A DNA stretch of 64,000 bases from Bilabrum cf. latius. Taxonomy: Eukaryota. Of the stretch, positions 1-64,000 are shown in pieces. The notes below the pieces were generated by a model. The model had not been told where the DNA came from, searched no databases, and worked only from the letters and a program-made list of their open reading frames with translations. The stretch's first letter is position 1, and each line of letters starts with the position of its first letter. Where the stretch lies: the NCBI GenBank assembly GCA_965178125.1, contig OZ237757.1, positions 558,001-622,000 on the forward strand. The letters are read 5' to 3'. Both the position numbers and the translations under genes were made by a program.

Positions 1-2
1 CC

Positions 3-3000
3 TGTCCCAAGACAGCAAAAAATCGCTACGGCCGTCATTCGCAGCTCCATGCAGTGAAGACCTAGCGCGCGTATTCATCAGTCCAGACACACTCGACTGA
101 GTCAACAGTAGAAAAAGCAGAGATGATAGCTCGTCAAGCCGGGTTCTCTGCATCTTACGGCCCGGTTGGAATGGGATTCGGCTACATCTTCGAATCCTCT
201 ACAGAGACGGCTAAAGGATCACAGGGATTTGAAGTCATTTCGACCCGGCACATCGACGTGATTGACTACTCTTTGAAGCCAAGTTCATGGTTTACTGCGT
301 GTTTTGCCGAGTACCCCCAGGGAACTCCAGGGTCTGCCGAAATGCTGCAAGTCCCATCAAGTTTCCGAGACATGTCGCAAGAACCGCCGACGGCAGAATC
401 AGGTCGCTTGAGTTGTGATCGTCTTTTTACCCAGTCGGCCCTCTCGGATGCATTTGAGAAAGCATCTCAAGGATTACCTGTTCCGGAATCTCTGCTCTCC
501 GAGTAGTTGCCGAGGTATCAATCTGAGCGGCTTGCAGTTCTGGAGCAAGCATCCGAAATCATTCAGAACTATTATGCAGAGTTCGTGCGGTAGTATGGAG
601 CAATGACTATTGCAAACATAAGCTTAGGCGGGGAGTTGTCGGCAGTTCACAGCTTCGCTTCCGAAAATCTTGCTGCAGAAGACAAGCTTGAGATCGGACT
701 CTAGCTTCAGGCCGGTATTGACAGCGAGTCTGCATTCAACTTGGGGGATCTGCTGGCTTCTGCAAGTGGAATAACATCGACTGAAACCCACTTGAACTAC
801 AGCAAGGTTATCGATGGCCTGAAGGACGTGACTTCGACTGCGTATTACTCTCGATCGGAGCGGCAAAAAGGAGCTTCAAGTGAGCGTATCCTGAACATCC
901 TGAGCGCAGCAGCCCACGGTGGAAAATTCGTGTTAGACATGAGCATGAAGTACAGCACATCGTAGCAGGTTCGCATCGCGAATACCGCGAAAAATGTTAG
1001 GCATACCGCTACGGGCGGCAAGCCGGAACTGATCACTATTGGTGGTGCATCCAACGTGGGGGATTCGCAGGCCAACGCTCACATGGAGTGGTCTGCCTCA
1101 GTACAAGACTTCCCAAGCGTGGTTCGAAGCGTGTCCATCCCCACCAGCGCGTTCATGGCCTTCGGCGACAGGTTCGCCTGCACCCGCCTGCTGGAGGCTT
1201 CCGACCAGCCCCACCTGTACGCCACCGAGGCCGACAGGGAGAGAGACTTCCGCGCGTGCTTCGCCTCGGGGTCCGGCCACCTGCTGAAGGATGACGACAG
1301 CACGCGAGAAGTGGAAGCGCACGAGCTGCCCCTCGTGTCGCGCTGGCGCAAGGCCCTGGTGCGGGCCGCCACCGAGGCCCGTCTGCGGGATGCCACCCGG
1401 CTGTCGTCGACGTTCGAGGCGGCTCGCACCGCGGGCGAGGTGATCCGCAGGGGCATGGAGATGTCGGATGGCGAGTGCAAGGACCTGTCAGAGCTGGTCC
1501 GGTGGTACACCATGATGCGGCTCACGGACTGGCCCGAGCTGGCCCCGATGGAGCCTGTGGACTGCGACAGGCGCGGGGAGCAGCCGCAGGGTGGGCGCCG
1601 GGGCCTGCACAGTCTGTCGACCGAGGACAAGACCATACTGGGGAACAAGGGACAGGACGCGAACAAGTACAAGGGGCACGCCACGGACCACTGCAGGGCC
1701 TGTCTGAACACAGTGCACGCCTACCTGACGTACAGCGCGCAGACCGGGCCTGGGCCACACAACCTGCAGTGCACGACGGTATCGAGCTTCACGCCCCCAT
1801 CTAGCTTGCAGTGCAATGCGTTCGCGCAGCTGTGGGGCGTGTCCGCCGACTCGGAGACGAAGGAAAGACGCATCGCCCGCCACTGCTCGATGCTGCCGCT
1901 GGAGGTGGAGCAGGGGCTGCGGCTGCACGCGGCACTGGACACGAAGCGGGAGGTGCAGGCGGGCACCGAGACTCGGATCGAGCCGCCGAAGTGCCGTGTG
2001 CAGACTACGAGCAATGGTGAGGAGCATCAAGTCCTCCGTACGTGCTCCGTGCGCGAGCTGTGTGTGGGGGTCGGCTTCTGCAGTCCAATGGAGGTGGGGT
2101 ATGTGCGAAGTCCGCCCCGAGTGGAGGTGCAGCTGGATGAGGCCAAGGTGGATCGCTTCAAGGAGGAGCACATCGGAGGCAAGGATTGCAAGCTGCACAA
2201 GCTGTTCCGCAAGTCCGTGATCGTGACCGCGACGTCTGCTTCGAACCAGGCCCGGGCGTCGAGGATGGTGCACGGAGACTCGCGGGAGAGTGAGGAGGCG
2301 GTCGGTGGGGCGGGCACTGGCGCTGTGCAGGCAACGAGCGATGGGTCCGCTCCAGGTGCATCGGGTGGATCCGAGCAGGATACAGGCGATGGGACTGACC
2401 AGCAAGCAGCCGACCAGTAGACTACGTCCGGATCCAGCCAAGCCAGCGAGGGCACTCAGGCCACTTCTGGCGGGCCATCAGACAGCACTGTGGCCACCCC
2501 CTCGCAGCGTATCCCACTGGACGAAGGCGAGGTGCTGCGGCAGGTCAGCAAGGACCTGGCAGGTGTCTCGATGGAGCTGGAGCACTTCATGCTGCGTGTG
2601 AAGGGTACCGGGCAGGAGTCGTGTCCGGATCGCAAAGAATTCGAGGACACTGCTCCAACAGGCAGCCTGCAGCTGTCTCTTGGATTTCCAGCAGGCATGC
2701 AGGTTACAGAAATAGCTGATCACCATTTTGCTCTGGAGTTCTCTGTGGATCGGCTCGACACGCTGTACCTGCACAAGGTGGACGATGACACGACTCCTGA
2801 AGGCCACATCCTGAGGGAGCCGCACGGCGAGGCGCTGTTCGAGCGGCCCCCCATGCTGGGCACAATCACGCTGGCCGTCAAGCTGATGAGCACCAAAACT
2901 CACGTGGTGCTGTGGCGAGTGCCGTCATCGTGCCAGGGCGGCAGCAGGGCCAGCACTGTGTTCCCTCGGCTTGATGTGGCCCAGACGAAGCTCAACCGTG

Positions 3001-34043: not shown

Positions 34044-34146
34044 CCTGGACCGAGCAGGTGCCTTCTGCGGAACCTCGTGCACTCAAAGGGCGCCGCGCCG
34101 GCCGTTTGTCCCCAAACTGTTGCTTTGCCCCAGAATTGGCAGGATT

Positions 34147-35253
34147 ATGCCACGACAAATCCAGTATTAGAATCCAACCTCGTGCTATGACTTTTTGCAC
34201 ACACTGGGAACCGTGATTGCATGGAGTGCCACTCTCCTTGTGGTGGTTGCCCCGCCCACGTTGCTTACGATTTCCGGGCCCGATGGTTCTTCGCAGAAGT
34301 TTGGCATTCAGTCCTTGGCCTGCCCCGCCCTCAGCTCTGGATTGAAGTCTATCCGTGAAAGTCAGTTCAACTACTTGGGAGATTTTCAAATTGAATCTCT
34401 CTGGTGCGAACAGGACCACTTGCAGGTTGCGTCTGTTTTGAAGGCGTCCGGGAGCGATCGACAGTGGATGCTGCTGCAGATTGTAGGGCTTTCCGCCTTG
34501 CTCTCTAGCGTATTCCGGTCCCGATTGGCAACTAGCGTGGTGTTTGCGGTCCTGGGATACCTTCTTTTCGTGTGGCAATCGGAGATGGCGCGCGCGGGAT
34601 TCACCACAGAGCTCACATTTTGGACCTGGCTGCTTCCCGCAATATTCGCACTGGCCGAGGCATGCCGCTTCTCCATTTCAAAGCTGGTGTCCAAGCAGTA
34701 CTGGAGCGAGCTGGGCCCCAGCGGTGGCAGCAGGCAGCCGGACGAGCCCTACCACGAGATCCACTACGCCCGCGACGTGGCGCTCAACACCGCCGTGGGC
34801 TGGCACGGCCTCCCGTCAGACGTGATCACCTTCGCGGCCGAGAAGATCCAGTCTGGGCTGCTCTTCATCCTGGGCCAGCTCGCCATCTTCGTGCTGGTGG
34901 TGGCCAGGGACCCGGTCCCCGCCTACGCTTGGCTGGTGCTGGCGGGCAGCGGCACTGCCCTCTCCCTCTTCAGCCGGGTCATCACCTGCTCCCTGCCCGG
35001 GCTCATGCCGGCCGTGTACCAGATTCTCCTGGTAGCTGCAGCCGGTGCTGTGGTGTTCCTGCCCTCCCTCCGCGACGCGGTGGATGCGGCGCTCCAGGGC
35101 CCGTACTAGGCACAGATTTCGCTGGCGCTGCAGGCGGTGGGCGTGATGGCTGGCCTGCTGTACGTGCTGCGGCTCGTGGGCATCAAGGTTTCCCTTGGAA
35201 GCCTTATCGGGTGCTTCACGGGGAAGTCTGGCAGAAGGGTGAAGAGAAGCTGA
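34147..35253 (+). CDS. Multi-pass membrane protein of unknown function
   Basis: Hydrophobic ORF 34195-35109 extends upstream to ATG 34147 across TAG 34168 and downstream across TAG 35107 through a further hydrophobic helix to TGA 35251. Confidence 0.65.
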
Positions 35254-47800: not shown

Positions 47801-48528
47801 GCTGCCGCCGCAGAGGGGCTGCTGCTTGTCTAAACAGCTCGCGCAGGTCCTATTTTGTCTTGTATACTCACAACCCCTGCATATGCTAGCGAGCCTATTC
47901 GCAAATATGCCTCCCCTGCATCGATTGCAACCACCACCTTGATGTTGCATGCTTGCACCTGCCGCTGTGGGGGACAGCAGGCAAGCTCGTTGCATTTGAT
48001 GCGCACCTCGACCCTTCGCAGCAGCCAGAGGATCCAAGGTGATAGCATTCGTAATCTTTTTGTTAGCAAGTTGATGCCTGTCAGTATCTGGGACTGCAAC
48101 GGTGAGCGAACGGTGGGCACAGCAGCGCGCCCTTCCATCTGCCTCTAGCTCACAAGCACGCCATCTAAATCAACGCAAATGGCGATACGTGATACATCGG
48201 ATGTTTTATCTACAGTACCCGTGAGCAATCCAAAACTTAACGCAAGCTTGGCAAACGATATGTTGTACAACCCGTCGGACGTCGACATTCGGAATTCTTC
48301 AATGACTCCGATATCTAAAGAGCTAGCTTGTGCAGTGCAAGATATTTTTGGATACAAAAAATGCACCAGTGACAGCGTGAGGCCAATTGAGTTCCGAACA
48401 GATGCGAAAACAAGCGCGGCAACTACTAGTCCAAGTAGAACGCTGGACGAAACATCGAATCCATCAGAAAATCCAGCTGAGATCGATAGAAGTCCAAGCA
48501 AAATAGATAAAACAACTACACGTATCAT
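35803..48528 (-). CDS. FMP27/Hobbit/KIAA0100/SABRE (BLTP2)-like bridge lipid-transfer protein, ~4,240 aa
   Basis: About twenty track ORFs in one frame, separated by TAG. N-terminal hydrophobic helices, SLAWWDRLRYSVHGKMRL, FMPFRSLGV, and C-terminal Apt1-like VYDHVEISAFP...LLAFF and VYIKYFRVGEIRL. Stop TGA 35803. Confidence 0.8.
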
Positions 48529-48927
48529 TACAGCGGCGGTATAGCTCCAGAAAATGGACAGCGGAGGCGCCGAATGGCAATTCGAAGCTTGACATTGGAA
48601 CGTTCGTTAAGGTTCACTAGTGGGTGCTGAATTGACTTCAGATTTACTGCTTAGCTTGGGACTTCATTTGGGAGTTTATTTGAAATTGATCGGAATACAT
48701 GTCATAACCACACTTGTGCTAATAATTTGCACAAGTATTGATTTTGTCCAATTGTGCTGAACCGGGTATTGACCGGCAGTCATCACCTGACCCCCCACAA
48801 GAGACTCGAACTCTCACCATGCATTGATACCCAACATATCTGCATTTTGGATAAATCAAAGTTAATAATAGCTACTATATTTTGTATTAAGACACTAAAC
48901 CAATTCACAAAGGGTCTGCTTGTAGTC

Positions 48928-51900
48928 TCAGCATGGCTGGCTTGGCACAACAGCCAACGCCGCGGCGTCACACAGTTGTCCACCATTCTCACAGAACGGC
49001 CCAACACCTTCAGCATTCTTTGCAGCCACTCGCACGTAGTATTGCTGGTTGGGCAGCAACGCCTGGCCGTTGGCCGGAGACAGAGTCATCACGAACGGGC
49101 CTGCCGGGCTCGCAGCCGCAGCCACGCTGTAGTGGAACACCCCACCGTCCGTGGCCGTATCACGGAAGTCGGGCTGGGCAGACCATTCCACGATGTACTC
49201 TGTAATTGCAGATCCTCCGTCGGCTTGGGACTAGTAGCCCATGCCTGGCTGCGGGCAAGCCCCCGGCTGCTCCGGATCCGACGTCCCACCCCCAGCGCAG
49301 AAGATCCCGTGGGCTGGCACGGTGGGCGCCTGCAGAGACACCAGAATCTAGGAGCCGCATTGCACGCTTGGGTTGCTCAAACTACTCGCGAGAACCACCG
49401 ACGTCGGCTTCCCGGGCAGCTGCCTTGATGGAGCCACCCCAGCAGGGGACGGGAGCGTGGGCAGCCCCTCTCCCACTCGGTTCACCGCGGAGACGCGCAC
49501 GTAGTACAGCTGGCCTGGCTGCAGATCCCGGATGGTGTACGCCATGGACGCTGCCGCCCGCACCTCGGCCTTCCCCTTGTGCGGTGCCAGTGCGAGGGAT
49601 TCGAACTCCGGGTCCACGTCCCACTCCACGACGAAGGCGGTCACGTTGTCGCCACCGTTGTCCAGGGGCATGCCGAATCCGACGGAGATCATGGTGTGGG
49701 ACGTGGCCTGGGCCCGCACGTTGATGGGGCCCATCGGTAGGGACCTGGGAAACTCGAACAGTGGCGTAGGCCCTTGCCCCTCCCCGACTCCTTGCGCGTT
49801 CACGGCGTACACGAGCACCCAGTAGCTCCGGCCGGGCACCAGACCAGAGAGGGTCTTGCTGTAGGGACCCCCATCTGGGATGTACAACAGCGAGGTCTCT
49901 TGGAATCCGGTCATTGCCATGTTATCAGCGTACCTAAGGCGGTACTCCGTGATGGCAGAACCGCCATCGTCTTGCGGCGGGCTCCATGTGACTCTGAGCT
50001 GGGTCCCGCTCACGACCGTCAAGCTGGCAGCTCGCACCCGGCCAGGGACGCGCACAGGAGCGACAAACGACCGACTGGGATCGGTTCGGCTGATAGCAGC
50101 CGTGGACTCGCCATATCCAACTCGGTTGTAGGCCGTGACCCGGGCGTAGTAAGGCCGTCCCTGCAGCAGCTGGGTCAGCGTTTTCTCGCTAAGGCAGTCC
50201 AGCGTGCTTTCCCTCTCCCCCTCAGTACGAATGGCAGCCGACACAGACACCGGAGACCCATCCGCACTGGTCAGGCTATTGTCGGCAACTGCCACCTATA
50301 CGTTGCCGACGTCACCCATGAACGTGATTGCCCACTCATGGGCACCGCTGCCGAGGTCGGTCCGCTCCACATTGACTCCGTCCGCTTCAACGACGCTGTC
50401 CAGGTAGTTCAGGTGGCTTTGCATCGACCCGGGGTTCGACACCGGATTTTCATCGCACGGGCGGTTGGATGCACCGATAATGGACACGTCCTCCACCACG
50501 CAGAACACGCCGCTACCACTTCCTACCGTAGCAGCAGCGTTCTCGTCGCTCATGAGAGCCTGGGCGTCGTATCGGATCGGCTCAGAGAGCGCCTCTGTCG
50601 TGTTGCTCTCGCTCCACACCCTCAAGCGGAAGGTACCGTTCGTGATGGCCGCGCTAGACGTGGTAGTCACCGTCACCACCTCGTGTGCTGCATCAACGGC
50701 GCAACGCTCGGTCTTTGCCCTGACTTGGCCCCCAGGCCCGTAGTCGGCAGACTCGGACCACTCCAGCCTGTACCCGAGGATTCCCGCTCCGCCATCGTTC
50801 TGCGGAGCATCGTAGTCCAGCTGCAGGCGCGAGCTGCTGGTTGGGTCGACAGCCAGGGTAACGTTCTCTGGGGTGCCTGGTTTCTGCAATGGCACCCGTA
50901 GGACCGCCGTTGCCTCCTGCGCGACAGTGGCAGCTCCCATTGGGGCCTGTTCGGCCAAGTTGCAGAAGACTGCCCCGGCCGGGGCGCATGCAGCTGCTGC
51001 TGGTATGCCCGCGCCGAGAGCGTTAATCGCAGATACCCTCCAGGCGTATGCAGTCCCAGCCACGAGCCCAGCGGTTCTGTATGAGAATTGGTCGGGCGGC
51101 ACCTCGACCGAGCCCTTGCTGGGAGGAAGCTCCCCGGGCCTGCAGGCCTCACACACCCGTCGTGTGGTGTTTGTCAGCTCGTTTGACGCAGAGAAGACGG
51201 TAGCAGCTGCTGCCGAAGACCCAGCCAGAAGGGAGTCGTCGATCTGCAGCAGGGGTACTTCACTTCCAGCCTCTCTTGCAAAGGTGATGATGTATCTGAA
51301 GCCGTCTGGCGAACCTCCCAAACTGGTAGAGATGTTCCCAATCGTTTCGATCGACACATCGACGGGCGATCGCACGCTCTCAATGACGGTCAGCGCCTTT
51401 TGCAAGTGCTCCGGGTCACACCCAGCCTGCAGCCAAACCGAGGGGCTGGAGCCGCCTGCTCGTAATCGGAAGAAGCCAGAAGGCACTTCGTTATTCGCAG
51501 TGTTGTCGGTGAGCTCGATGACCTGGATAGCTGACGAGCCTGCTCGGCGCCTTCCATCCATGTTCCGATCCGGATCCACAATGTTAGTAATGCAATCTGT
51601 TCGCAAAGGATCTGCGCTATTGCAACCGCTGGCGGAGCGCACGTTGGATGCATCGACCACCAGGGCGGGTACGTTGGCCTTGTCCCCAACGAAAGTGACA
51701 TCCCAGTAGTATCCAGTGGGAGTCTGGCCGCGGCTGACCTCGATGTGCTCCATCAGGTAGGACGTACCTGGCGCGGCATTCGGGTCCTCAATGTGCATCA
51801 GATGCCTCCGGAAATCGGCCGCGCTTGCGTCCTACGGGATTTGCACGGAGGTCCCGCCGAGATACTTGACCAGCATGGACCCCTGCGTGACAGGGACGTT

Positions 51901-54900
51901 GAGGTCCAGGCGTCCCTCGGAGCTCTCAAGCACAACTCGCTACACTTCCGGTGCATACTCATCCGACCACCACTCTACAAGGTAGCCGCTGACTGTGGCT
52001 CCTCCATTGCTCGCTGGTGCCGACCAAGACACCGTTGCTGCAGACTGAGGCTCACTGTTCGGTTGGACCAATTCGGTTGTGACGCGTACGTCCCGGGGCG
52101 CGGGAGCGGTAGTCATAGGCACTCCCATCGCCACAGAACCGGCTGCCCCCACGTACTGTCCCGCTGCCCCCGTAGTCCACGCTCCGGAACCAGCCTGCGA
52201 ACGTGCTCGGACTCGCACGTAGTACGTGGTGCCTGGTATGAGTCCCGTAATGTTGTGGATGAATACACCTCCAGAAGCGAGGGGTACAAGCTGTAAAGAG
52301 GCTACAGGAACCGGGGTGCCTTCGTCGTACGATGGACTCGAGAACGATGCAGACGTATCGTATGCAACATCATACTCGGTCACAGGCCTGCCACCGTCCG
52401 TTGCTACTGGCGGGAACTGCACCCTGAGCTCTGAACCAGAGAGCAGCCGAGCTCGCACGAACTCAGGAGCGGCCGGGGGCTAGAACGCGGTCTCAACCGA
52501 CTCTACAGCTGCCCAGTTGCGGTTGTCGACCCACTGCAGCGCTGGCGCTCCGTCGTAGGTCGGCGGCAGCCACTGCTTGTTGGAATCAAAGGGGACGGCA
52601 TTTTCCGCACAGACGCGCGCAAAAATTACCGTACCGTTTGTGATACTGGACGGTGAGGCTGAAGCAGTATTCAGCTGCTGGATTGTGTACGTGTATGGCG
52701 GAGCCTAGCCGGACAGCGATGCCATCTCAATCACCTCAACACCTGATGGTGCAGGTCGCCCGGGCTCCAGTCCCGAAGTGGAGGCCGCCAAAGAGCGGAA
52801 GTCATCGGCAGTATCCCACTCGATCCTGTATCGCAGCACCGCAGACCCGCCGTCCTGCACAGGCGGGCTCCAGACGAGCTGGACCTCGCTGTCCGACAGC
52901 ACGATGGCGCTGGCGCCGATTGGCGGCTATGGAATCTCCATCGGTACCAATGATGACACCAGTGAAGCTGCACCAGCACCGATCTGGTTGTGCGCCATAA
53001 TACGCGCGTGATACTCCTCGCCGCGAAGCAGGCCTCCAATCACGAGGCAGCTGTTGCAAGCTGAGTGCGTCACGAATGCCCGAGCCTCCGTCGGAGTGAG
53101 TGCGTCTTTCCACACGTGCAGCATCTCAATGTCACCTTCCCAACTGATGAACTCGACAGTCCATTCGAATCCGCCAGCTGCTCGAGCCACGCTGAGTGCA
53201 CGCTGTCCAGGTCTGCGGCTGATGTGATCGACGGTCGTGTGGTCGTCGGCCCGTCCAAGCTCCACTCGCATACCCCCAAGATGGATGCCACGGACGCCGA
53301 ATTGCTCGTCGCCGACCCAAATCGTATCTCCGACCGACATAGTGCCAGCAACACCAGGGGCAGTCAAATCCACAAATGAGGACAACGCAGTTGGCACACT
53401 TGCAGTCACAGGCAAATCTAACCGAGCCAGCACTCGAGATACATCCACGGCATCTACTCCCTGAATAGACTCCACTGCATTGCGCACTGCTGCCGCGGTA
53501 GCATCGAATGCAAGCTCGGCCGTCCTTGCTCCGCCAAGGCCGTATGCTAGGGAGAAGTGACCACCGGAAACGACAGTGAATTCATCCGTAGGGTCGCCGA
53601 CTATCAGTTGCACTCGCTGCACCCTTCGAAGCAACTCAGTGGACGTGATTTCAAGCGTGCGCTTGTCTGGCGACTGAAGCGTGGGACTGCTATCAACTTC
53701 GACTGTGTACTTCGTAATCGCCGCGCCACCCGAGTAGCTTGGGGGATGGAACGAGAGTGCGAGCTTGGATCCAGACTCGGCGATTCCAAGGCTCACCTCA
53801 CGCACCGACACAGCAGCACCATCGCCCTCAAGCTGTGTTGCAATGCCCTGCATGGCCTCGACGTCTCCAGCAGCGTAGAAGGTAACTAACCACGAGCTGC
53901 CGTCCTATGAATCAAGCACAGCGGCCTTTGATACTTGAACATTCGCGATGCTGGGAAGGGCCTCGAGAGCCTCTTTGACGCTGAGGCGGTTGTCCCCTGC
54001 GATAGGCTCTGCCGGGGCATCGTATCCGAGCATTGCGGTCTGCCTGCCAGCGTATGACAGGCGCCATTGACCACGCAGTGCGTTGCTCTCACTGACCGTG
54101 CGCACCTGCACGGCTGCCTCAGATCCAGTCAGTGACGACACCGCTTCCATCTGGGACACGTCACCCTTTGGACCAACAAAGGTGACAAGCCAAGTGAAGC
54201 CCTGGGTAGTGTCAGGGCCAGAGCGTGATACTTCCACTGCATTCGAAATGGAAGGGAAGTACAACCCGTTGAGCGCCAGCTCTACGTCGGATGCAGTGGC
54301 GTTCCAGCTGAGTGAGGTCGTGGAGCTCCCGTCCAGTTTCAAGTAGAACAAGCCACCAACCGCGTTGCGGGTAACCTCCACCGAAACGTCGCAGCGCGGG
54401 GACGAAGCTCCAGTTGACTACAGGCTCGAGCTTTCGCATTCAATGTCTGGAACAGCACCGCTTGATGTGAAGTCTACATCAACCATTGCGACGTACCAAG
54501 CGAACCCACCCACCACGTTAGCGATGGACCTGGTCACTTCAACCTACTGTATTCCTGGTAGCTGCTCCAAGCTGGCGGTAATGAGCTGTGCGCTGGAATT
54601 GTGGAACAGCAGACGGTCAGTCTCATGACTTTCGGCCCACGTTGATACCGTAGATACGGTAATCTGGCTGGACTAGCATCCAGTTGCAGACGCGTTAGCC
54701 GCTACTATCCACGCCGGCATCAGATCGCCTGCCACGTCGTCGCTCCAGGATACCGCGTCAATCAAGTAGCGGAAACCAAAAGAATCAGCGGCCCCTCCGT
54801 CCAATTGTCTCTAGACAGCCACTGCATTAATCGATGTCCCGGCAACATTACGCTGTGTTCCGATCAGGGCATTTGCAAGCTCAGAGGAAGTAGCTCCAAG

Positions 54901-57900
54901 TCCCACGCAAGATGATGAGCCTTCCGTATGCGTGCTGGCGTCGCTAGAGGATGCCTGTAGCGCAAATGTAGATGAAGGCGATGGTGTGGTCGCAGAAACA
55001 ACTACCGTGGTTGTCTCAGAGATGGCTACCATCGGCTAGACAGACGGCGAACCATCAAAGCATCCCACTGCGCTCCCCATACCGTGAACTTCAACCGACA
55101 ATTGCTGGCCCTGCACCGCAGGCGCAAAGACTCGTATGAGGCGAGCAGTATTCAGGGCAGCTGCAGCACCTGCTGATGCATACGCAAAGCCTGCTGCGTC
55201 GATGTATTTCGCCTTTATCCCCTGTCCCAGGGAAACACCGGCACCATCTATGGTACCGTTCAGCAGTGCAAGAGCCTGCTCAATCTGCACGAGGTCGGCA
55301 CTAAAGTCAATGCATTGCGATATCAGCGAGGTCTGGTTCTCAGCACTGCTGCTGTTCCCGTACCGGAGTCGGAATTGGGGAAGCGACTCCATAGGGTCGC
55401 TGCTACTCGAAGCCAAGGCAATGGAGAAACTCGGATCCGAGAGTGCGATGCCACCCCACGACAGGTCAAGCTTACCACTGAGCGATTCACCGCGGGGCAC
55501 CGAGGTGCGAATCGCTTGAATTTCAGGAATGTATGCTGCATTTGTACGAATTTCTTGCACCTCGTCCTGATGCGTGGCACCAGTCGAAATTGCCTGCACC
55601 TCGTACATGCGAGTGGCTACACTTAGACGCACGGCCTGAGGCGCAGCAGGAGGGGCCACCGGAATATCAGAGTCGACGTTCGACCACGGACCAAGTTTGG
55701 CCGGTGGCATGGGCAGCTCATCATTTGACGATGCAACACGTCCGAAGTACTGAACACCCTCTTGCAGGCCACCGACAACGTAGGAAGATGGCAGCTTGCC
55801 GGCGACGAAGCTGTCAAACACCCAGCCAATGGCTGACGTTCCACTGAGAGCACTTGCTTCAAGATCAAGACTAGGAATATCCCCCACATTCGTTTCGAAT
55901 TCTACTCCCCACGACAAGCCACTTGACTTGTAGACTGGATACACCCCAGTGGCACCCTGGAATGAGAGCTCATCGGACGCATCGCCTGATAGGTTCGCAA
56001 GTGGGATTGTTGTGGCCGACAGCACGTCGTCCATACCACGAGTTGGGCCCATCTCGCTTACCCTTGAATCAAATGATGCAACCTCTGCGTCATTCGCAGG
56101 GTTAGAGTCGCATGCCGACAGAGCAATTGGTACGCTTGTGTTCATGGTAGCTTCAACATGGATGACATACACGAAACGCGAGGAAGAGGCCTCTTCGTAC
56201 CTGGTTACGAAGACAGGTACCGAAAGGCTTCCCTCGGATTCCGCCAAGCGAATCGCTGCAGCCGCATCATCAGTCATACCTGTCGACACGTTTACGAAAC
56301 CCGGATTCATGGCCCCAATGATAGCAAGTTCTACCTCAGCAGCAGACGGTGGGCCAGATACAGACCCAACACACACAGACGTGCTGCCACCAAGAGCGGC
56401 CATATCGAAGCCGAACTCTAAAGTCGTTCCAACCGGGAGTACAACCTCGAACTTCGGAAGAGGCACGGACCGAACAGCAAACGTCTCAGCCAGATGGAAC
56501 ACTTCCTCATCCGCCACCGAGGTGGTCGATGCGTTCTTATCCAGCTGCGCGAACCGGCCCAACCCAGCCTCTATCACTGTAGCATTGAACTCAAGCGCAC
56601 TGGTTGAGTTCGGGAAAACGACTGGATCGCAGACGGCTGCGGATGCTTGACCCGCGTTACCGCTATCAATTGCGAACATGAATGGCACACCATTGAAACT
56701 ATTTCTCGGCGAGACAGCATCGAACGATCCCGCAAATCTGACTCTGTATACTAGCCCAACTCCAGCCGTGCCAGCACCCGGTTCTGGCAGCAGCGCGACA
56801 GATACTGGTGTTCCAACAAGGGTGGACAGAGCGGCCTCTAATTCGGCTGCAGAGGACGCGACCGGGACGCAACGACTGAATCGAGCTGCTGTTTGGGTTC
56901 CTTGGGACGATGATGGTGGGATGTATCTGAGCCGGTACTACCCGGTCGCCCCACTCGCTGCACTCACATTGGCTGTAGCGCTGAACACGCGCATTTCAAC
57001 TACAGCTGCACCAGTGCTCGTCACCACGAAGGATTCTCCACTGATCTCAACTCGCTGCCCATCATATAGATCGCCTCGGTTTACTGTTGCTAGCTCCAGC
57101 TGGCTTGCTCCAGCCGCCAGCCGACCAGTGCCGAGCAACGTCTTCCCCAACAATGCGGCGCTGCCGTGCCGATAACCTGCAGGTAGACCTCCGACTCGGA
57201 TAGAGTCTCCGGCGGCCAGCAATGTTCGAGCATCGGGAGGCGCACTCACGCCATCGGGACCTGCCACAAGCTCCACACTGGCTCCGCCAAAGGTCGCTCT
57301 TCCGAATCCGATCAGGCTGCCAAGCAGTTGCTGTCTATCGACCGTCACTGTTCCAATATCTGGCAGGTCTTCCAAGAACCCGTCGAGCGCTGCGGCACTC
57401 ACATCATATGCCATGCTAGGAGTGCTCGACCCATAGAGCGACACCGCGAAGTTGCCACCCAAAGGCTCCAGGCCGTCGATAGAGGAAACTTCAACCCTTC
57501 CATTGGTGCCGCCGATTCCAGAATCGGACACCTAGAGCTACAACGGGTTCCCAGTGCCGTGTGGGTACGCGATACCACCATCGAATGCGCCTAGGTTGCG
57601 GATAAAGTGTACGCTAACTTTGTACCCACCCTTGCGCGATGTGGGCTGCACATGTTCAGCATTCCACCCTGCTCCCCAGGTACGGTCAATGCTCACATGC
57701 GCATCGACGACGCTGCTCAGCTCCTCCAGCTGCAGTTCTATCCGTCGAGCCGAAGAGGTTAACGAAAAAGTTCTGGCTCCGGTGTTGTGACCAGCAGCGC
57801 CAGGCATAGTCACGTCAAATGTTCCATTCAGGCCGACTGAGCCGGTTTCAACCTCAACGGCATCAATACCCGCCGATGAAGTGTTCGCACAGGCCGTACA

Positions 57901-60900
57901 AGCTCCAACGCCCGACTCTCCCAGCAACATGGGCGTGTGGATCAATGGGTCGGTAGCAGAGACATTAAACTGCGTGCTCAACAGGTCGATATCGCCCGCA
58001 CCAGCAGGCACCATTCCACGGTTGGCCGTAAACGTCACTGTCCACTAGTACGTCCGGTACTTCGTTGTCCGCATGCGCGAAACCATAACATCGTCATACG
58101 CATCTACCGACCTGAGTCCATACGCGAGATCGTCAGTACTTGCATCAAAAGCAACCACAGCGGAAGAATTGCCACCAATTCGCATCACATCTGATTCGAC
58201 GCTAAACTCTCCAAATAACACGTTCCCTCGAGTTGCTTCCAGTACGGTCGCTGTCACGTTGTTGCCGGCCAACTGCGGCTGAGTCGAAGCAGAATCCAAC
58301 AGAATGCTAAGGTCAGGTACATTGCCGGGAGATGGGCATGACTAGACTCCCGGCAAAGAACCCTCTGAGCATTGAAGTGCTGATTCTGCGTCTCTAAGGA
58401 AGGTTATGGTCCACGTGTATCCTCCAGAGAAAGGCACATCTGTCGAGAATCTCTCCACGGCTACATCGCCCACATTTGCAAGGTCTTCTAACACAGACTC
58501 CATCGAATAGTCGGCGTTTTCTGTTCTTGAAGCCGCAATATCGTGCCGGATCAGCACCGTCTGCTAGTCCACGCAAACATACGGAGTCCCGGAATCACCG
58601 CACGTCTCGATACCTTGGGCTTCCTCGGTAGTGTTGAGGCCAAGCCTGAAGTATCCATGCACTGGGTCGGTGCCTTCGTCGCCCACATCGACCGTAACTG
58701 AGCACGTTGCCGAAGCAATGCTAGGTGACGTATCCTCCAGCCGCGAGTCGTCACATACCGCAGTTGGGATGCGTGTTCCTACGTTCCTGCCCCACGCCTG
58801 GGAGTAGCCAGTATTCCAGTCGTGGGATGAATCTCCAGAGTGAACATTAGAGGTGTACGTTATGCGCCACACAAACTCCTTCTACTAATTGACGCGCTCG
58901 CTGCTTATGTTGACGGGCAAGCCTCGTGAGACACTCACGCTATGAATGGTTGTGAGTGCCTCGAGCTGCGTGGTGAGCACGGCGGCCGATGCATCAAAGG
59001 TAATCTCGCCGGTGGTTTCTCCGTCAAAAGTAAGCTTGAAGGTGCCATCGAGTTGGTTGCCTTCCTCAACGGTACCAGTCTCGATTCCAACGTCACTGTA
59101 GGAGCCTGCCGTTGACACGGTGGCATCGCACTGTCCAAGACCGAGCTGGTCACATGCAGGCCCAGCCTGCAGCTGTGGCACGTTGCCACCGTTCTCCGGA
59201 GCAACAAAGGTGATCAGCCACGTGAACCCACCGGCTGCATTTGGAGTGTACGACTGCAAGGCAACGTCCACCTCTGGAATTACTGACACATTAAGTCCAG
59301 TTGCAGAGTCCGTCATATTCATGCCCTCCAGAGCTGCTTTAATTGAGATGGCGACCTAGTCAGCGTCGATTGGAAGCTGTGGCCCTAGTTCCACAGACTG
59401 AGTGCGATGGGAACCATACGATAGGAAAAAGCTCCCAAGGATGCTACTTCCTTGCTACGGCACGGGAGAAGAAAGCTACACCTGCGCGGCGCGACTTGGC
59501 GCTCCGGCTCGTGGCGTACCCGATGAGAGATTAGTCAGGGTAGGAGACAGGCCGTTAATTGAAACGTACGCAGCGTCCACGGGACCAACGGAGATAAGCG
59601 AGTCGTTGAAATCGCCAGGGTGGCTCACAAAGGTGATTCTCCACGAGTAGCCGCCAGCCCACCCTGCGCCGACAGCAGGCGTTGGTACTGGCGCTGACAC
59701 GGTCACCGTCTCTCCAAGCTGCTAGAACACTTGCTCAAACTCACCAGACGATGCGTTTGCCGGAACAATTGCGCTGGAGTTCCCATCATCAATGGAAACC
59801 CAGAAATGCCCAGTAATTTCAGAGCCGTCAGTGCAGTTCTGTGCATCGAGGGCAGAATCGCACACCGAAAGCTCCACGACACCGTTCGTGCTGACGACAG
59901 GGTTTCCGCTTGCCTGGCTGATTGCCAAGGCGTCCAAGTTTCCATCCACGCCCGTAAATGTAACGAACCACACGTACCCGCCGGAACTGTCCCGGTCACT
60001 TCTCGAGACTGTCACTGATTGGATTGCGTGAAGTGCCTGAAGCTCCTCTTGCACACTACCGGCCCCATCCGAAGTTGTTGCTCCAGCGTTGTGGTCTACT
60101 CCAGGCGTAGTGGCCTGCACGCCAAACTGACCGCGTGAATCTGTGTAGGTCAGCACAAACTGCCCATCGTAAATCTCGTTGCCATTCTATGTCACTGATT
60201 GCTGGATTGCCGCGGTGTCCGCAACCCCATCACCATCGGAATCGAAGTTGGCTGTGGATGCTGCATCTGTGCCAGGCAAAGTCGCGGCGAGGGGCCTGAG
60301 AGCGAATGTAGACGTAGAGGTCCTGCTAGGCGGAATATCTCCATTCACACTCTCGCCTGAGAATTCTACTAACCAGCCTGCATAGTTGGGGTCGCTCTAA
60401 TCGCGGGCAAGTGACACATTTAGCTAGCCTGAAAGGATTGGGAACTCTGCTTCTATCGCCTCTAAGAATTGGCTAGCGTTCATTCCAGCGTTGAACGCGG
60501 ACGATCCGGATTGCGAAGGCCCACAGGATGAGCCGCAGTTGCACAGCAAGCAGCCGCGCAGGTCAAGCTCGAGACCGAAAGTTGCCTGCGTTCCGAGCGG
60601 GAGGTCGTCCCGCCCGGCCTATGTATGTGTGCTCGTGTACACCGATGGTGATGCCACATAGTCATTCACAGTGCCTACAGCGCCAGGATGAGCGCATGTA
60701 AAAACGATGCGACCGGTTGCCTCGTCCACCTGGGATAGCACATCCTGCGACCTTGGCACCGTTGCACTTATTCCTCCCGGTGCTCCCATGGTGTTGGACA
60801 GACCGCCTTGATGGAGCTCAACTGATTCAGCTGTGGCATTCAAGATATCAACCAAAGCTGAGTTCGCTGTCAGATTGACAACCACAGCCTGTGAGTTCTC

Positions 60901-63900
60901 CACCGACCCGTCTGAGTCCCACTCATAGACTACCTGGTCTGACGGAGACCCTCCGCAGTTAATCGCGAACTCCCGGTCATCAAGGCCATTAGGTCCATTC
61001 CCAATATCAGTTGATACCACTACTAATGTGAGCTCGGACGCCTACGTGCCATTCCTGTCGCGCAGCTCCAGAGCGTGCACCTCGTTGACATCATCGGAGG
61101 CCACGCGGATTACCTGCACCTCGGGAACCCTTGTGGCCGACGTGACAATTTCCTAGACTTCATCCACGTTGTTTCCAGTCGCACGAACGAACTGAACTTC
61201 ATCGCGATCAATCGTCGATGTCCTAAGGGTTTGTACCTGAGGTAGCACAGGCCCACTCGAGATCGCAACGGTCTGTACCTCATCGGTACCGTTGACAGTG
61301 GTTGTGAGAGTCTAGATTTCATTGTGCACGTCCTCCACGATTTCGATCGTCTGCACCTCGATGCCAGTCTCATTTAGCTCTACCGAAAGGACTTGCACTT
61401 CATGGACTACAGGCAGGTTGGTGCGCTGCAGATCGGAAGAGTTAAAGTGCTCAGTCGTGTCAATCTGTAGCTGGAAATACTGCAAAGTTGAGCCACCATC
61501 ATGAAGGGGCGCCGTCCATTCGGCGGATACTTGTTGGTTGTTGATCGATCGCACTGAAAAGTCACGAGGTGCGGTTGGCTCCTGGTCGCTTGTGGTAGCC
61601 GTTGGCGGCTTGGGGTGGGCGGCGGGCCCAAACCCTACTGAATTCCTGGCCGATACCCGCACAGCATACGTTTTCCCGGGAACGAGCTAGGAATCAATGT
61701 TGCCGGTAGAAACATTCCTTGAGCCGATAACAAAGCTTAGCAGCTGGGATGACGCGCGAGGCGCCGGGACAGATGCTTGCGTCACTAGTCGTCTCGATGC
61801 CTCAAGAGCCGGCCCGACCTGACGCCTAGCTGCTGGGCTCAGGGAGCTACCAAGCTCTATGGCTGTTGACGCAGATATCGTAGTGCTGTCCTGTGGTGGG
61901 GCACCGACAGCAGAGAATCTGGTCTCGTCCCATTCGATGACGTACTCGTCAATTTGGCTTCCACCGTTGCCACTGTAAATTAGCTGCTCTGCCGTTGGAG
62001 CCTCCCACACGACTCTGATTTCCACAGCGGACAGCACCTGCAGCGCAACAGCTGCTGGGGGCCCAGGCACTCGCATTCGCGGGATGGCTGAATGTGTCGC
62101 GGCATATGGTCCATCGCCCCTGTCATTTGTTGCCAAAATCCTCACGTAGTAGCGCTGCCCTGATGTGAGACCGTCAATGTTAGTGTAGAACTGGCGCTCG
62201 CTGCGCGCAGTTGAACTCGTGATCGTAATTGCTGCAGGGTCGTCCACCACCACGCTATAGTCAGACACGTTTTGATCCACGAAAGACTCGCTTAGCGACC
62301 ACTATACGAGGTACTAGAATACGGGAGAACCACCATCCTACTAGGGGTACTGCCACGATAGCTTGAGCGACGTATCGGAAAGCACGTGTAGTGCGGATAC
62401 CCTCGGAGCGCCAGGCGCCGTTCGCGGCAGTTCGAATCGGGGGTGGGTGAACGTGGATGGTCCGAATCCATTCAATGCATTCTTCGCAGCGACTCGAACT
62501 CCGTAGGCACGTCCTGCTTCCAGCCCCCCCAGCTAAACCGTGTACAAACTGGTGGAGCCAACTGCTTCTAGCTATACTACAGCATAGTCACGAGGAAGCA
62601 CGCCTGTCTGAACGACAGCAACCTCAGCGTCTGCTCCCGGACCAGTGATCGCAGAGGTGGAAATCTCTAGCGTTGGAACATCTCCAAGTTCCCCGACAAA
62701 GGTGACAACCCAATCGTACCCCAACCCATTCGCGCGTCGCACAACAGACACATCAGACACGGCAGCAAGAGCTTCAAGGCGGTTCTCAAGCATATCTGAA
62801 GAAGCCTCCACATCGATGAGTTCCGTGCGCTCCCCACGGAAACCTAGCTCAAAGTACCCGCCAATTGGCTTCTATCCCTGTCTCTCGGTTACAACGGAAG
62901 CAACCACATTTGTTCCTGACCAGCTGGTTCCAGGTAGCGTGATCATCTCTGGCACATCTCCCACGTGTGCCGTCTCTATGAACGTGATGCGCCAGTTGAA
63001 GCCGTTCCCGGATACCCATACGGAGTAGTCGCCCTACACTGGCCCGTTCCATGTGCCAGGCTGTAGCGCAGCATTAGGATCAGCTGCCTTTGACAGGACG
63101 AACGAATCAGCACCTCCAGCACCTGCGGATCCAGGCGCTCTAGAAGCATCTGATGTCACTATGAATGTGTTGGCTGTCTCCGAGTCTGCATGGTCAAAGG
63201 CAGTCAAAAGTCGGACTGCAGTGACCCCGGGCTGAAGAGCAATTGTATCAACAGTGCTATCCAGACGCGTCACATGCACGAATCCAGTGCCATTAGTTGG
63301 GTCGATTTCCTGGCGGGCCCTGTACAGGCCAGGCAGTCTCTTCCACGACGGTGTTCTAACGACCTCAACGTTCTGCACAGAACCAGTCCTCTCCAGGATT
63401 GCTTCCAGCTGACTGGCGGTGGCATCGTGCGGGATGTCTTCAGACACCTCCGAGCCAAACTGTACTCTGAAGCTGCCCTGGATATCATTCAAGTCTGCTG
63501 TCGTGCTCACAACCTGCACTTCTTCCACTCCGGACGGGCGGGCGGTCCCAATCGCGCGCGCTATTGCCGACACAGTGATCACCTGGACTTCATAAACAGG
63601 TTCCGACGCGAAACGTTCAACCCTGTATGACTCAACTGGACTGCCACCATTGTCCGATGCCGCTGAAAACTACACTTGGAGCTGGGCTGCACTTGCAACG
63701 GATAGTTGGGGGCTCAATACTGGCCCTGGCTGGGTTGAAACGAGTACTCGAGCACTCGACTTCGCTCCAGTGCTTGCACCCCTGCTGTTAAATGCGGTCA
63801 CACGTGTGGAGTAGCCATTGCCACTCTCCAGCTGGTTGACGACCACTCGTAATGGGTTGGTCCCGCGCACCAACTCACTAGCGAACCCACGCACGTTCAT

Positions 63901-64000
63901 TCCGATGCAACCGGAGGTATCGACACCCATGATGCCGAGATTTCCGGCACCTCGTACAGTCTCGTGGCTTGTGTGAGCGAATTCAACCTTCCATTGGTAG
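48928..64000 (-). CDS. Giant fibronectin type III repeat protein, >5,000 aa (5' end outside window)
   Basis: More than twenty track ORFs in one frame, broken only by TAG. Repeated W..P..DGGS.I..Y...W and YYVRV.A.N..G.G FN3 motifs interleave with EVQ-initiated / W.VTF...GDV repeats. Stop TGA 48928. Confidence 0.9.

What the first reader, a model, noticed from the sequence alone, without database searches (positions are those of the whole stretch)
1..64000. Nuclear genetic code with UAG reassigned to a sense codon while UAA and UGA stay stops
Seen: in every long gene the ORF fragments share one frame and every internal interruption I traced is TAG, never TAA or TGA. The 14 gene ends are 12 TGA and 2 TAA (12928, 34041). 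Essential motifs lie beyond TAGs (ATP23 ACTEIRA, ESF1 NUC153, kinase subdomain XI). Established: in eukaryotes UAA and UAG are usually reassigned together, and UAG-only codes are rare (the fornicate Iotanema, a rhizarian, some phyllopharyngean ciliates). Inference: this GC-rich genome looks unlike those lineages, so it may be an independent and possibly undescribed reassignment.
Basis: partly seen in the sequence, partly recalled or inferred. Interest (0 to 1): 0.95.

Follow-up and report, generated by a model that had tools for sequence, protein, structure and literature searches.

The report
Eukaryote that reads TAG as glutamine
This stretch of nuclear DNA comes from an unidentified GC-rich protist that reads the stop codon TAG as glutamine while still stopping at TAA and TGA, a rare but already known kind of genetic-code change.

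Summary
Freeing TAG alone turns a window whose longest standard-code ORF is 633 aa into ORFs of 5023, 4267 and 3555 aa. Freeing TAA or TGA does not. The three giant genes hold 111 in-frame TAGs, no in-frame TAA and no internal TGA in 12,848 codons.

TAG means glutamine. It sits in conserved Gln columns (ESF1 11 of 12 homologues; RAVE 64 of 98). In a 97%-identical relative, two ATP23 TAG sites are Gln. In orthologous genes of a syntenic metagenome relative (L001), TAG pairs with CAG/CAA in 8 of 13 well-aligned non-TAG pairs.

Spliced, transcript-like contigs from two studies keep the TAGs. All 14 ORF ends are TGA (12) or TAA (2).

The relative L001 (48% GC) uses the same code, with TAG making up a third of its Gln codons.

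Not testable here: a tRNA-Gln(CUA), eRF1, and the identity of the organism. No whole genome is held and no named close relative was found.

The code matches that of Iotanema, Protocruzia and some phyllopharyngean ciliates. This is most likely a new lineage with a known variant code.

One loose end remains: five TAGs cluster in the last 49 codons of the 4267-aa gene.

The parts
1..64000 (.). Nuclear DNA of a GC-rich, intron-poor eukaryote (about 60% GC). TAG is a sense codon in its genes.
   Evidence: Composition. ORF-length test. No tRNA gene in the window.
3..3428 (+). MACPF-domain gene, copy a. The ORF is open at the window start, holds 6 in-frame TAGs and ends TGA.
   Evidence: Pfam MACPF, E 2.9e-5. 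Codon counts.
3604..5052 (-). 482-aa gene of no Pfam family, copy a. It has no TAG and ends TGA.
   Evidence: Weak beta-propeller-like Atlas hits only.
5318..7651 (+). MACPF-gene paralogue, copy b (C-terminal part), 96% nucleotide identity to copy a. It has 1 TAG, shared with copy a, and ends TGA.
7824..9275 (-). 482-aa gene, copy b, 91% nucleotide identity to copy a. It has no TAG and ends TGA.
10293..10994 (-). ATP23 (Peptidase_M76) gene. Exon 2 is 10293-10777, the GT..AG intron is 10778-10866, and exon 1 runs to at least 10994. There are 3 TAGs in exon 2 (10554, 10437, 10347) and 2 in exon 1. The gene ends TGA.
   Evidence: Pfam E 2.7e-44. Spliced contigs in X5, X7 and X8. TAG positions. 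Homologues.
11083..12884 (+). ESF1 gene. Exon 1 starts at or before 11083 and ends at 11231, the GT..AG intron is 11232-11327, and exon 2 is 11328-12884. There are 7 TAGs in exon 2 and 1 in exon 1. The gene ends TGA.
   Evidence: Pfam RRM_ESF1 E 2.9e-44 and NUC153. Spliced contigs in X5, X7 and X8 with 0 differences..
12928..15852 (-). 974-aa multi-pass membrane protein gene with 6 TAGs, ending TAA.
   Evidence: Transcript-like contig 12936-15840 with 0 differences. Orthologue in L001.
15910..18888 (+). 992-aa ORF with weak ankyrin matches and 8 TAGs, ending TGA.
19097..29764 (-). 3555-aa RAVE/Rav1 (DMXL-like) gene with C-terminal WD40 repeats and 29 TAGs, ending TGA. The TAG at aa 1686 sits in a conserved Gln column.
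   Evidence: Pfam Rav1p_C E 6.1e-18..
29916..31658 (-). Protein kinase gene. The ORF has 5 TAGs, 2 of them upstream of the first Met. One TAG, at aa 511, lies inside the kinase-domain match. The gene ends TGA.
   Evidence: Pfam Pkinase E 2.2e-31, aa 181-546..
31302..35253 (+). Two overlapping ORFs in different frames: 31302-34043 (ends TAA) and 32998-35253 (ends TGA). Each has 7 TAGs and no Pfam family. The gene model is unresolved.
35803..48606 (-). 4267-aa gene with a weak Hobbit/BLTP2-like match and 39 TAGs, ending TGA. Five of the TAGs lie in the last 49 codons.
   Evidence: Pfam Hobbit E 5e-4, below the curated cut-off..
48928..63999 (-). Giant repeat protein of more than 5023 aa (FN3 plus a second repeat type), open at the window end, with 43 TAGs, ending TGA.
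   Evidence: Pfam fn3 E 9.9e-23. Self-built HMMs find 17 and 24 repeats..

Best explanation
[quoted passage not shown] This is the same table as NCBI code 15.

Shown here:
- TAG occurs in frame throughout 11 of the 13 long ORFs listed, at about 17% of Gln-type codons.
- TAG is kept in spliced mRNA-like contigs.
- TAG stands where homologues have Gln.
- TAG interchanges with CAG/CAA between close relatives.
- TAG is never an ORF end.
- A related environmental species with lower GC uses the same code even more heavily.

Inferred from established knowledge of other UAG-reassigned eukaryotes, not tested here:
- Decoding is by a cognate tRNA-Gln with anticodon CUA, one anticodon change away from tRNA-Gln(CUG). 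Such a tRNA reads UAG but not UAA.
- The eRF1 N-terminal domain has lost or weakened UAG recognition while keeping UAA and UGA.
For: (1) ORF lengths. Longest ORFs are 5023, 4267 and 3555 aa with TAG freed, against 633 aa under the standard code, 633 aa with TAA freed and 862 aa with TGA freed.

(2) In-frame stops. In 12,848 codons of three genes, frame 0 has 111 TAG, 0 TAA and only the terminal TGAs. Off-frames have 9-25 TAA and 50-150 TGA each.

(3) Meaning of TAG.
- ESF1 TAG at aa 337: the column is Q in 11 of 12 homologues.
- RAVE TAG at aa 1686: the column is Q in 64 of 98 distant homologues, with E in 17.
- Relative P0014 (97% identity) has Q at two ATP23 TAG sites. Its ORF ends exactly before the third.
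- Relatives P0001, P0101 and P0102 have Q at three further TAG sites.
- Window versus L001 orthologues (ESF1, the membrane protein, ATP23) give 16 TAG-containing codon pairs in well-aligned context: 8 with CAG/CAA, 3 TAG-TAG, 3 GAA/GAG, 1 GCA, 1 TCC. None of the 200 Leu cells (symmetric tally, identical pairs counted twice) pairs with TAG.
- Column log-odds over 14 TAG positions give Q +8.0, then A -4.9 and K -8.0. The same method names the right residue for 56 of 58 sense codons.

(4) mRNA.
- Contigs of runs X5 and X8 (one study) and X7 (another study) skip 11232-11327 (GT..AG) and 10778-10866 (GT..AG on the minus strand).
- Contigs of X5 and X7 cover ESF1 exon 2, and the membrane-protein gene with all 6 of its TAGs, with 0 differences. 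X5 covers all 7 ESF1 exon-2 TAGs. The X7 contig ends at 12795, past the last TAG at 12777-12779.
- Run X6 (a third study) has an unspliced contig over 10529-16908 with 0 differences.
- After splicing, the exon-1 reading frames carry 1 (ESF1) and 2 (ATP23) more TAGs and no other stop.

(5) Stops.
- The 14 ORF ends are 12 TGA and 2 TAA.
- ATP23 ends at the same aligned residue with TGA in both species.
- ESF1 ends within a few residues, with TGA here and TAA in L001.

(6) TAG near gene ends is still sense. The ATP23 TAG 17 codons before the stop and the ESF1 TAG 34 codons before the stop are each followed by conserved domain residues.

(7) The base after in-frame TAG is C 44, G 52, A 27, T 24. 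This mirrors the base after CAG: C 163, G 187, A 68, T 76.

(8) Relatives share the code.
- L001's longest ORFs are 906 and 614 aa with TAG freed, against 253 aa under the standard code.
- Its three genes hold 24 TAG, 24 CAG and 23 CAA.
- Standard-code ORF fragments of relatives start or stop right at the window's TAG sites: P0127, P0103, P0101, P0161 and P0107.
Against: - No tRNA gene lies in the window or in L001. No whole genome is held. So the decoding tRNA and eRF1 are unseen.
- Some TAG columns do not favour Gln. RAVE aa 1647 is L in 35 of 89, R in 13 and V in 11. ATP23 aa 93 is N/K/D. ATP23 aa 132 is G 27, H 24, Q 15.
- Three well-aligned orthologue pairs are TAG with Glu, one with Ala and one with Ser.
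- Internal repeats of the giant protein point to Ser for TAG. They also point to Ser for the true Gln codons CAG and CAA, so that test cannot resolve Gln.
- Five in-frame TAGs crowd the last 49 codons of the 4267-aa gene. The codon-usage score there (0.07) lies between coding and non-coding values, so one gene ending at TAG is not excluded.
- The runs that I read as RNA are only guessed to be RNA by the tool, and X5 is marked 'probably DNA'. The spliced joints are what identify cDNA-derived contigs.
- Only 14 genes were seen.
Confidence: 0.9

Rival explanations
1. Ambiguous code: UAG is mostly read as Gln but can also terminate in some contexts, for example close to the true 3' end, as in Condylostoma, karyorelict ciliates, Blastocrithidia (for UAA) or Amoebophrya sp. 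Kv.
For: - The 4267-aa gene has 5 TAGs in its last 49 codons, against 39 in 4267 codons overall.
- That tail's codon-usage score is 0.07. This is low for coding sequence (mean 0.21, 5th percentile 0.02) and just above the off-frame 95th percentile of 0.03.
- The 3' UTR just downstream is also rich in TAG.
Against: - None of the 14 ORF ends is TAG.
- TAGs 17 codons (ATP23) and 34 codons (ESF1) before the real stops are followed by conserved residues, so they are read through.
- Frame 0 is still the best-scoring frame of the tail.
- The base after TAG is distributed as it is after CAG.
Confidence: 0.07
2. UAG is a sense codon but encodes glutamate, or another residue, rather than glutamine.
For: - 3 of 13 well-aligned TAG/non-TAG orthologue pairs are GAA/GAG.
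- Relative P0013 has E at ATP23 aa 93.
- E is the second commonest residue (17 of 98) in the RAVE aa 1686 column.
- UAG read as Glu is described for one ciliate (PMC10553269, abstract seen in a search listing; PMC11687900, passage).
Against: - 8 of those 13 pairs are Gln codons.
- The two most conserved columns are Gln (11 of 12 and 64 of 98).
- The 97%-identical relative has Q at both TAG sites it covers.
- Summed log-odds rank Q first (+8.0). E is not among the top three.
- Only 3 of 90 Glu cells (symmetric tally) pair with TAG, against 8 of 57 Gln cells.
Confidence: 0.03
3. The TAGs are not translated. They would be assembly or base-call artefacts, pseudogene lesions, or sites removed from the mRNA by splicing or editing.
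For: Nothing positive. This is only the prior that in-frame stops usually mean errors or pseudogenes.
Against: - Contigs from runs of 3 further studies have the same letters (0 differences over the genes covered). This includes spliced transcript-like contigs that keep the TAGs.
- There are 111 TAGs but no TAA or internal TGA in frame in 12,848 codons.
- TAG sites are conserved as TAG, or swapped with CAG/CAA, in a relative whose three orthologous proteins are 52-85% identical.
Confidence: 0.01

Closest known systems
Nuclear code of Iotanema spirale (Fornicata): UAG = Gln, with UAA and UGA as stops. Source: PMC5304391, abstract and passages read.
   Same: The codon table is the same. UAG alone is reassigned, to glutamine, and UAA is kept as a stop.
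   Different: Iotanema is an anaerobic endobiotic fornicate known from transcriptome data. This organism has ATP23, a mitochondrial inner-membrane protease, about 60% GC, and no detectable close similarity to any named taxon. Its tRNA and eRF1 were not seen. For Iotanema the paper reports a T32G change in the eRF1 GTS motif.
UAG = Gln codes in two phyllopharyngean ciliate lineages and in Protocruzia tuzeti. Source: PMC11687900, discussion passages read.
   Same: UAG but not UAA is reassigned to glutamine, and this has arisen independently several times.
   Different: Nothing here marks a ciliate. The window is 64 kb of contiguous DNA with 14 ORFs at about 60% GC, with 89- and 96-nt GT..AG introns. 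No ciliate appears among the named homologues. That ciliate genomes are mostly AT-rich, and that some phyllopharyngeans have gene-sized chromosomes, is recalled and was not tested.
Rhizarian exLh (Sainouroidea), UAG = Leu, and Scotinosphaera, UAG = Ser. Sources: PMC5304391 abstract; PMC11687900 passage.
   Same: UAG is reassigned on its own while UAA stays a stop.
   Different: The amino acid differs. Here none of the 200 Leu cells pairs with TAG, and Ser pairs once. Log-odds favour Gln.
UAR = Gln code (NCBI table 6: many ciliates, hexamitin diplomonads, some ulvophytes).
   Same: A stop codon of the UAR pair is read as glutamine.
   Different: UAA is not sense here: 0 in-frame TAA in 12,848 codons, and 2 ORFs end in TAA.
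Ambiguous stop/sense codes (Condylostoma, karyorelicts, Blastocrithidia, Amoebophrya sp. Kv). Source: PMC12005148, passages read.
   Same: In-frame stop codons sit in essential genes and are kept in the mRNA.
   Different: Only one of the three stop codons is affected here, and it was not seen as a terminator at any of 14 ORF ends. Amoebophrya sp. Kv is described as AT-rich, with all three stop codons in frame.
Code-15 bacteriophages (crAss-like, Lak and others): TAG = Gln.
   Same: The same codon is reassigned to the same amino acid.
   Different: Those are phage genomes in bacterial hosts. This is eukaryotic nuclear DNA with spliceosomal introns and the genes ESF1, ATP23 and RAVE.

Membership tests
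UAG=Gln, UAA/UGA=stop nuclear code (NCBI table 15 type) | UAG occurs in frame inside conserved, expressed protein genes. | tested here: met
   158 in-frame TAGs in 13 ORFs. TAGs lie inside the Pfam domain matches of ATP23, ESF1, the kinase and RAVE. They are kept in spliced contigs.
UAG=Gln, UAA/UGA=stop nuclear code (NCBI table 15 type) | UAG positions correspond to glutamine in homologues. | tested here: met
   Q in 11 of 12 and 64 of 98 homologues at the two conserved columns. 8 of 13 orthologue pairs are Gln. Log-odds give Q +8.0 against a next best of -4.9, with 56 of 58 controls right.
UAG=Gln, UAA/UGA=stop nuclear code (NCBI table 15 type) | UAA is not a sense codon and serves as a terminator. 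| tested here: met
   0 in-frame TAA in 12,848 codons, against 9-25 per off-frame. Two window ORFs and two L001 genes end in TAA.
UAG=Gln, UAA/UGA=stop nuclear code (NCBI table 15 type) | UGA is not a sense codon and serves as a terminator. | tested here: met
   The only in-frame TGAs are terminal. 12 of 14 ORF ends are TGA. ATP23 ends at the same residue with TGA in the window and in L001.
UAG=Gln, UAA/UGA=stop nuclear code (NCBI table 15 type) | A cognate tRNA-Gln with anticodon CUA is encoded in the genome. | not testable with these tools
   There is no tRNA gene in the window or in L001, and no whole genome is held.
UAG=Gln, UAA/UGA=stop nuclear code (NCBI table 15 type) | The eRF1 N-domain is altered so that UAG is no longer recognised. 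| not testable with these tools
   eRF1 is not in the window.
Ambiguous (context-dependent) stop/sense codes | The reassigned codon also ends genes. | tested here: inconclusive
   0 of 14 ORF ends is TAG. The TAG-rich tail of the 4267-aa gene could hide one TAG terminator. A search for relatives' fragments found nothing.
UAR=Gln code (NCBI table 6) | Both UAA and UAG are sense codons. | tested here: not met
   No in-frame TAA was found, and freeing TAA does not lengthen ORFs (633 aa against 633 aa).

The most novel reading that the evidence does not exclude
This is an independent, so far undescribed origin of the UAG=Gln / UAA-stop code, in a eukaryotic lineage that is neither a ciliate nor a fornicate. 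The lineage would be an environmentally widespread clade with no named close relative. It would hold at least three species-level members, spanning 48% to 60% GC, that all share the code. That would show the reassignment is old and stable and was not driven by AT pressure. It is possibly combined with occasional use of UAG as a terminator, given the tail of the 4267-aa gene.
Probability: 0.45. Interest if true: 0.75.

Novelty: new member of a known kind. Interest (0 to 1): 0.62.

Why it matters
Nuclear codes in which UAG and UAA have different meanings are very rare. The papers I read list one fornicate, one rhizarian, one green-algal genus and a few ciliate lineages.

Each new case tests the idea that the fates of UAG and UAA are coupled through eRF1.

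A case in a GC-rich genome, with genomic DNA, spliced transcripts and lower-GC relatives all available, would allow three things:
- comparing tRNA-Gln(CUA) and eRF1 changes across a clade;
- dating the switch;
- asking whether base composition mattered.

There is also a practical point. Any annotation of this organism or its relatives under the standard code breaks its genes into fragments. This is visible in the database proteins that start and stop at TAG sites.

Tried and rejected
- Whole genome: none is held, so no genome-wide tRNA, eRF1, rRNA or Codetta-style scan was possible.
- tRNA scans of the window and of L001 found 0 genes.
- Earlier scan notes gave nothing for this genome or its look-alikes. 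A word search returned only phage and bacterial TAG cases, which I did not use.
- Paralogue comparison of the tandem duplicates was uninformative. The only TAG aligned between copies is TAG in both.
- Internal repeats of the giant protein rank Ser first for TAG. The control shows the true Gln codons CAG and CAA also rank Ser first, and only 42 of 58 sense codons are right. I rejected this test as unable to resolve Gln.
- A search for relatives' short ORF fragments covering the last 300 aa of the 4267-aa gene scored none of 441 candidates. The tail question stays open.
- A candidate 76-nt intron in that tail, read by eye, would shift the frame into a long stop-free read-on into AT-rich sequence. 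I judged it implausible and did not test it.
- The protein-atlas search of the 482-aa protein gave weak beta-propeller-like leads and no useful taxon.
- Organism placement failed. Named nearest homologues are scattered at 25-41% identity: Powellomyces, Hondaea, Niveomyces, Halichondria, Helicosporidium, Tribonema, Polychytrium, Sorochytrium, Stephania, Mucochytrium and Calicophoron. I built no tree, because one short protein with few named rows would not resolve it.
- Sequencing runs: no listed holder is on record as RNA. Organism names are coded.
- Literature searches found no paper describing UAG=Gln in a GC-rich eukaryote that is neither a ciliate nor a fornicate. The library lacks most subscription journals, and supplements were closed. 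One search returned mostly noise.
- Amoebophrya sp. Kv was considered and rejected. It is described as AT-rich, with all three stop codons in frame.

Full report
**What is there**

The window is about 60% GC: 0.50-0.64 per 4 kb. It carries 14 long reading frames on both strands.

Under the standard code the longest stop-to-stop ORF is 633 aa. With TAG alone freed the longest are 5023, 4267, 3555, 1141 and 992 aa. With TAA freed the maximum stays at 633 aa, and with TGA freed it is 862 aa.

In the three giant genes (12,848 codons) the coding frame holds 111 TAG, no TAA, and TGA only as the last codon. Each off-frame holds 9-25 TAA, 34-54 TAG and 50-150 TGA. This cannot be chance. One caveat applies: the TAA at 34041 closes an ORF that overlaps another ORF in a different frame.

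**It is eukaryotic nuclear DNA**

Pfam assigns these genes:
- ESF1 (RRM_ESF1, E 2.9e-44; NUC153)
- ATP23 (Peptidase_M76, E 2.7e-44)
- a protein kinase (E 2.2e-31)
- a RAVE/Rav1-DMXL-like WD40 protein (Rav1p_C, E 6.1e-18)
- a MACPF protein
- a giant FN3-repeat protein
- a weak, below-cut-off Hobbit/BLTP2-like match in the 4267-aa protein

Contigs of public runs laid on 9401-29400 show two short GT..AG introns:
- 11232-11327 in ESF1
- 10778-10866 on the minus strand in ATP23

Their sequences have ordinary splice sites: GTGAGA...CAG and GTAAGT...CAG.

**The TAGs are in the mRNA**

- Runs X5 and X8 (one study) and X7 (another study) contain contigs with these introns removed. Contigs of X5 and X7 cover ESF1 exon 2 and the 974-aa membrane-protein gene with 0 differences from the window.
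- X5 covers 11328-12875 and 12936-15840. X7 covers 11328-12795 and 13041-15832. All 7 ESF1 exon-2 TAGs and all 6 membrane-protein TAGs lie inside these ranges.
- Run X6 (a third study) has an unspliced contig across 10529-16908, also with 0 differences.

So the TAGs are not base-call artefacts of one assembly, and they are not spliced or edited out. The tool only guesses that X5, X7 and X8 are RNA, and it marks X5 'probably DNA'. The spliced joints are my basis for calling these contigs cDNA-derived.

Joining the exons as the contigs do restores the conserved ESF1 N-terminal motif. It also reveals one more in-frame TAG in ESF1 exon 1 and two more in ATP23 exon 1, with no other stop.

**What TAG means**

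Four lines of evidence agree on glutamine.

(a) Conserved columns.
- The ESF1 TAG at aa 337 aligns with Q in 11 of 12 homologues.
- The RAVE TAG at aa 1686 aligns with Q in 64 of 98 distant homologues, E in 17 and H in 7.

(b) Close relatives.
- P0014 is 97% identical to ATP23. It has Q at TAG sites 93 and 132, and its standard-code ORF ends exactly before site 162.
- P0001 has Q at ESF1 aa 291 and aa 337.
- P0102 has Q at RAVE aa 1686, and P0101 has Q at RAVE aa 1907.
- P0101 has R at aa 1895.

(c) Orthologous codons.
- L001 is a 7-kb metagenome contig that carries the membrane-protein gene, ESF1 and ATP23 in the same order as the window.
- In well-aligned context (6 or more of 10 neighbouring residues identical) there are 16 TAG-containing codon pairs: 8 with CAG/CAA, 3 TAG-TAG, 3 GAA/GAG, 1 GCA and 1 TCC.
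- Counting all 33 aligned TAG-containing pairs regardless of context, 11 are Gln codons and 3 are TAG-TAG.
- In the same alignments TAG is the commonest non-identical partner of Gln (8 cells), and none of the 200 Leu cells pairs with TAG. This tally is symmetric, so identical pairs count twice.

(d) Codetta-like sum of column log-odds.
- I used homologues whose aligned segment is 60% identical or less, over 14 TAG positions. The result is Q +8.0, A -4.9, K -8.0.
- The same procedure names the right residue for 56 of 58 sense codons. It fails for ACC and CAA.

Evidence pointing elsewhere:
- RAVE aa 1647 sits in a column of L 35, R 13 and V 11 out of 89.
- ATP23 aa 93 and aa 132 sit in variable columns.
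- The internal repeats of the giant protein favour Ser. They do the same for CAG and CAA, so that test is blind to Gln.

**TAG behaves like a Gln codon in other ways**

- It makes up 158 of 933 Gln-type codons (17%) in the 13 ORFs.
- The base that follows it is distributed as after CAG: C 44, G 52, A 27, T 24, against C 163, G 187, A 68, T 76.

**TAA and TGA are the stops**

- No ORF end is TAG.
- ATP23 ends at the same aligned residue with TGA in the window and in L001.
- ESF1 ends within a few residues, with TGA here and TAA in L001.
- TAGs close to the 3' end are still read. The ATP23 TAG 17 codons before the stop is followed by the conserved VFRRCFADT stretch. The ESF1 TAG 34 codons before the stop is followed by NUC153. 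This argues against a Condylostoma-style rule in which position decides sense or stop.

**One loose end**

The 4267-aa gene has 5 in-frame TAGs in its last 49 codons. The codon-usage score of that tail in frame 0 is 0.07. Coding windows have mean 0.21 and 5th percentile 0.02. Off-frame windows have mean -0.37 and 95th percentile 0.03.

A search for relatives' fragments over this region found nothing. I cannot exclude that this one gene ends at a TAG. I give an ambiguous code about 7%.

**Relatives**

The code is shared by a small clade known only from unnamed environmental or run-derived sequences.
- L001 has 48% GC. Its longest ORFs are 906 and 614 aa with TAG freed, against 253 aa under the standard code. 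TAG is 24 of 71 Gln-type codons in its three genes.
- Standard-code ORF fragments of relatives in the protein libraries begin or end exactly at the window's TAG sites: P0127, P0103, P0101, P0161 and P0107.

**Who is it?**

I could not tell.
- No whole genome is held.
- The names of the runs' organisms are coded. Four labels in five studies hold the stretch.
- The nearest named homologues are scattered over fungi (Powellomyces, Polychytrium, Sorochytrium), labyrinthulomycetes (Hondaea, Mucochytrium), a sponge, green algae, a plant and a fluke, at 25-41% identity.
- ATP23, a mitochondrial inner-membrane protease, argues from established knowledge against an anaerobic fornicate such as Iotanema.
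- Long multi-gene contiguity, 60% GC and the absence of ciliate hits argue weakly against a ciliate.

**How it most likely works**

This part is inferred. A tRNA-Gln with anticodon CUA reads UAG but not UAA. PMC5304391 (passage read) cites this as shown experimentally for Tetrahymena tRNA-Gln(CUA). Alongside it, an eRF1 whose N-domain no longer recognises UAG would be needed. Neither component could be looked at.

**Comparison with what is known**

From the papers read:
- UAG=Gln with UAA kept as a stop is reported for Iotanema spirale (PMC5304391, abstract and passages).
- It is also reported for Protocruzia tuzeti and, twice independently, within phyllopharyngean ciliates (PMC11687900, discussion passages).

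The codon table here is therefore known. What may be new is the lineage. Five searches of the held library found no description of such a code in a GC-rich eukaryote outside ciliates and fornicates. The library lacks most subscription journals, supplements were closed, and the run data date from 2025, so a description may exist or be in preparation.

**Verdict**

- The amino acid is assigned as Gln.
- Novelty: a new member of a known kind.
- Interest is moderate to high (0.62), not 0.95. The code variant itself has precedents, and neither the independence of its origin nor the mechanism could be tested here.

Noticed in passing
window 3-9275, and about 9533-9980: A tandem duplication of a roughly 5.3-kb unit made of a MACPF-domain gene and a convergent 482-aa gene. 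The copies are 96% and 91% identical at the nucleotide level. A third, partial copy of the middle of the MACPF gene lies just before ATP23. A contig of run X5 has a loose end at 9980 that continues like the full copies, so copy number or arrangement may differ between samples or be collapsed in the assembly.
   Followed up: partly
window 35803-35953 (minus strand): Five in-frame TAGs sit in the last 49 codons of the 4267-aa gene, and the 3' UTR downstream is AT-richer and also TAG-rich. It is unresolved whether this is a Gln-rich tail or a rare TAG terminator.
   Followed up: partly
window 23600-24030 (minus strand; RAVE aa 1913-2053): A 35-aa acidic tandem repeat (four full copies plus a variant) inside the RAVE-like gene. 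Each full copy carries one TAG at the same position.
   Followed up: no
window 48928-63999 (minus strand): A giant protein of more than 5023 aa, open at the window end. It is built from about 17 FN3-like repeats and about 24 copies of a second repeat of roughly 100 aa, marked by a W-x-[IV]-x-F ... G-D-[IV]-P motif. Pfam does not name the second repeat.
   Followed up: partly
window 31302-35253 (plus strand): Two long ORFs overlap by about 1 kb in different frames: 31302-34043 and 32998-35253. The first also overlaps the 5' end of the kinase gene on the other strand. This is probably one gene with an unseen intron or frameshift, or one of the ORFs is spurious. It affects whether the TAA at 34041 is a true gene end.
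   Followed up: no
L001 1-7023: The syntenic relative has only 48% GC, against about 60% here, and uses TAG for a third of its Gln-type codons. The code is therefore shared across a wide range of base composition.
   Followed up: yes
window 9441-9830: There is a patch of differences between runs: many single-letter differences, 1-base indels, and a 96-nt stretch (9569-9664) replaced by 18 other letters in X5 and X7. It lies in the partial third repeat copy, so these are probably reads from paralogous copies.
   Followed up: no
window 16909-16974: A serine-codon simple repeat in the 992-aa ankyrin-like ORF. Contigs of all the runs break here.
   Followed up: no
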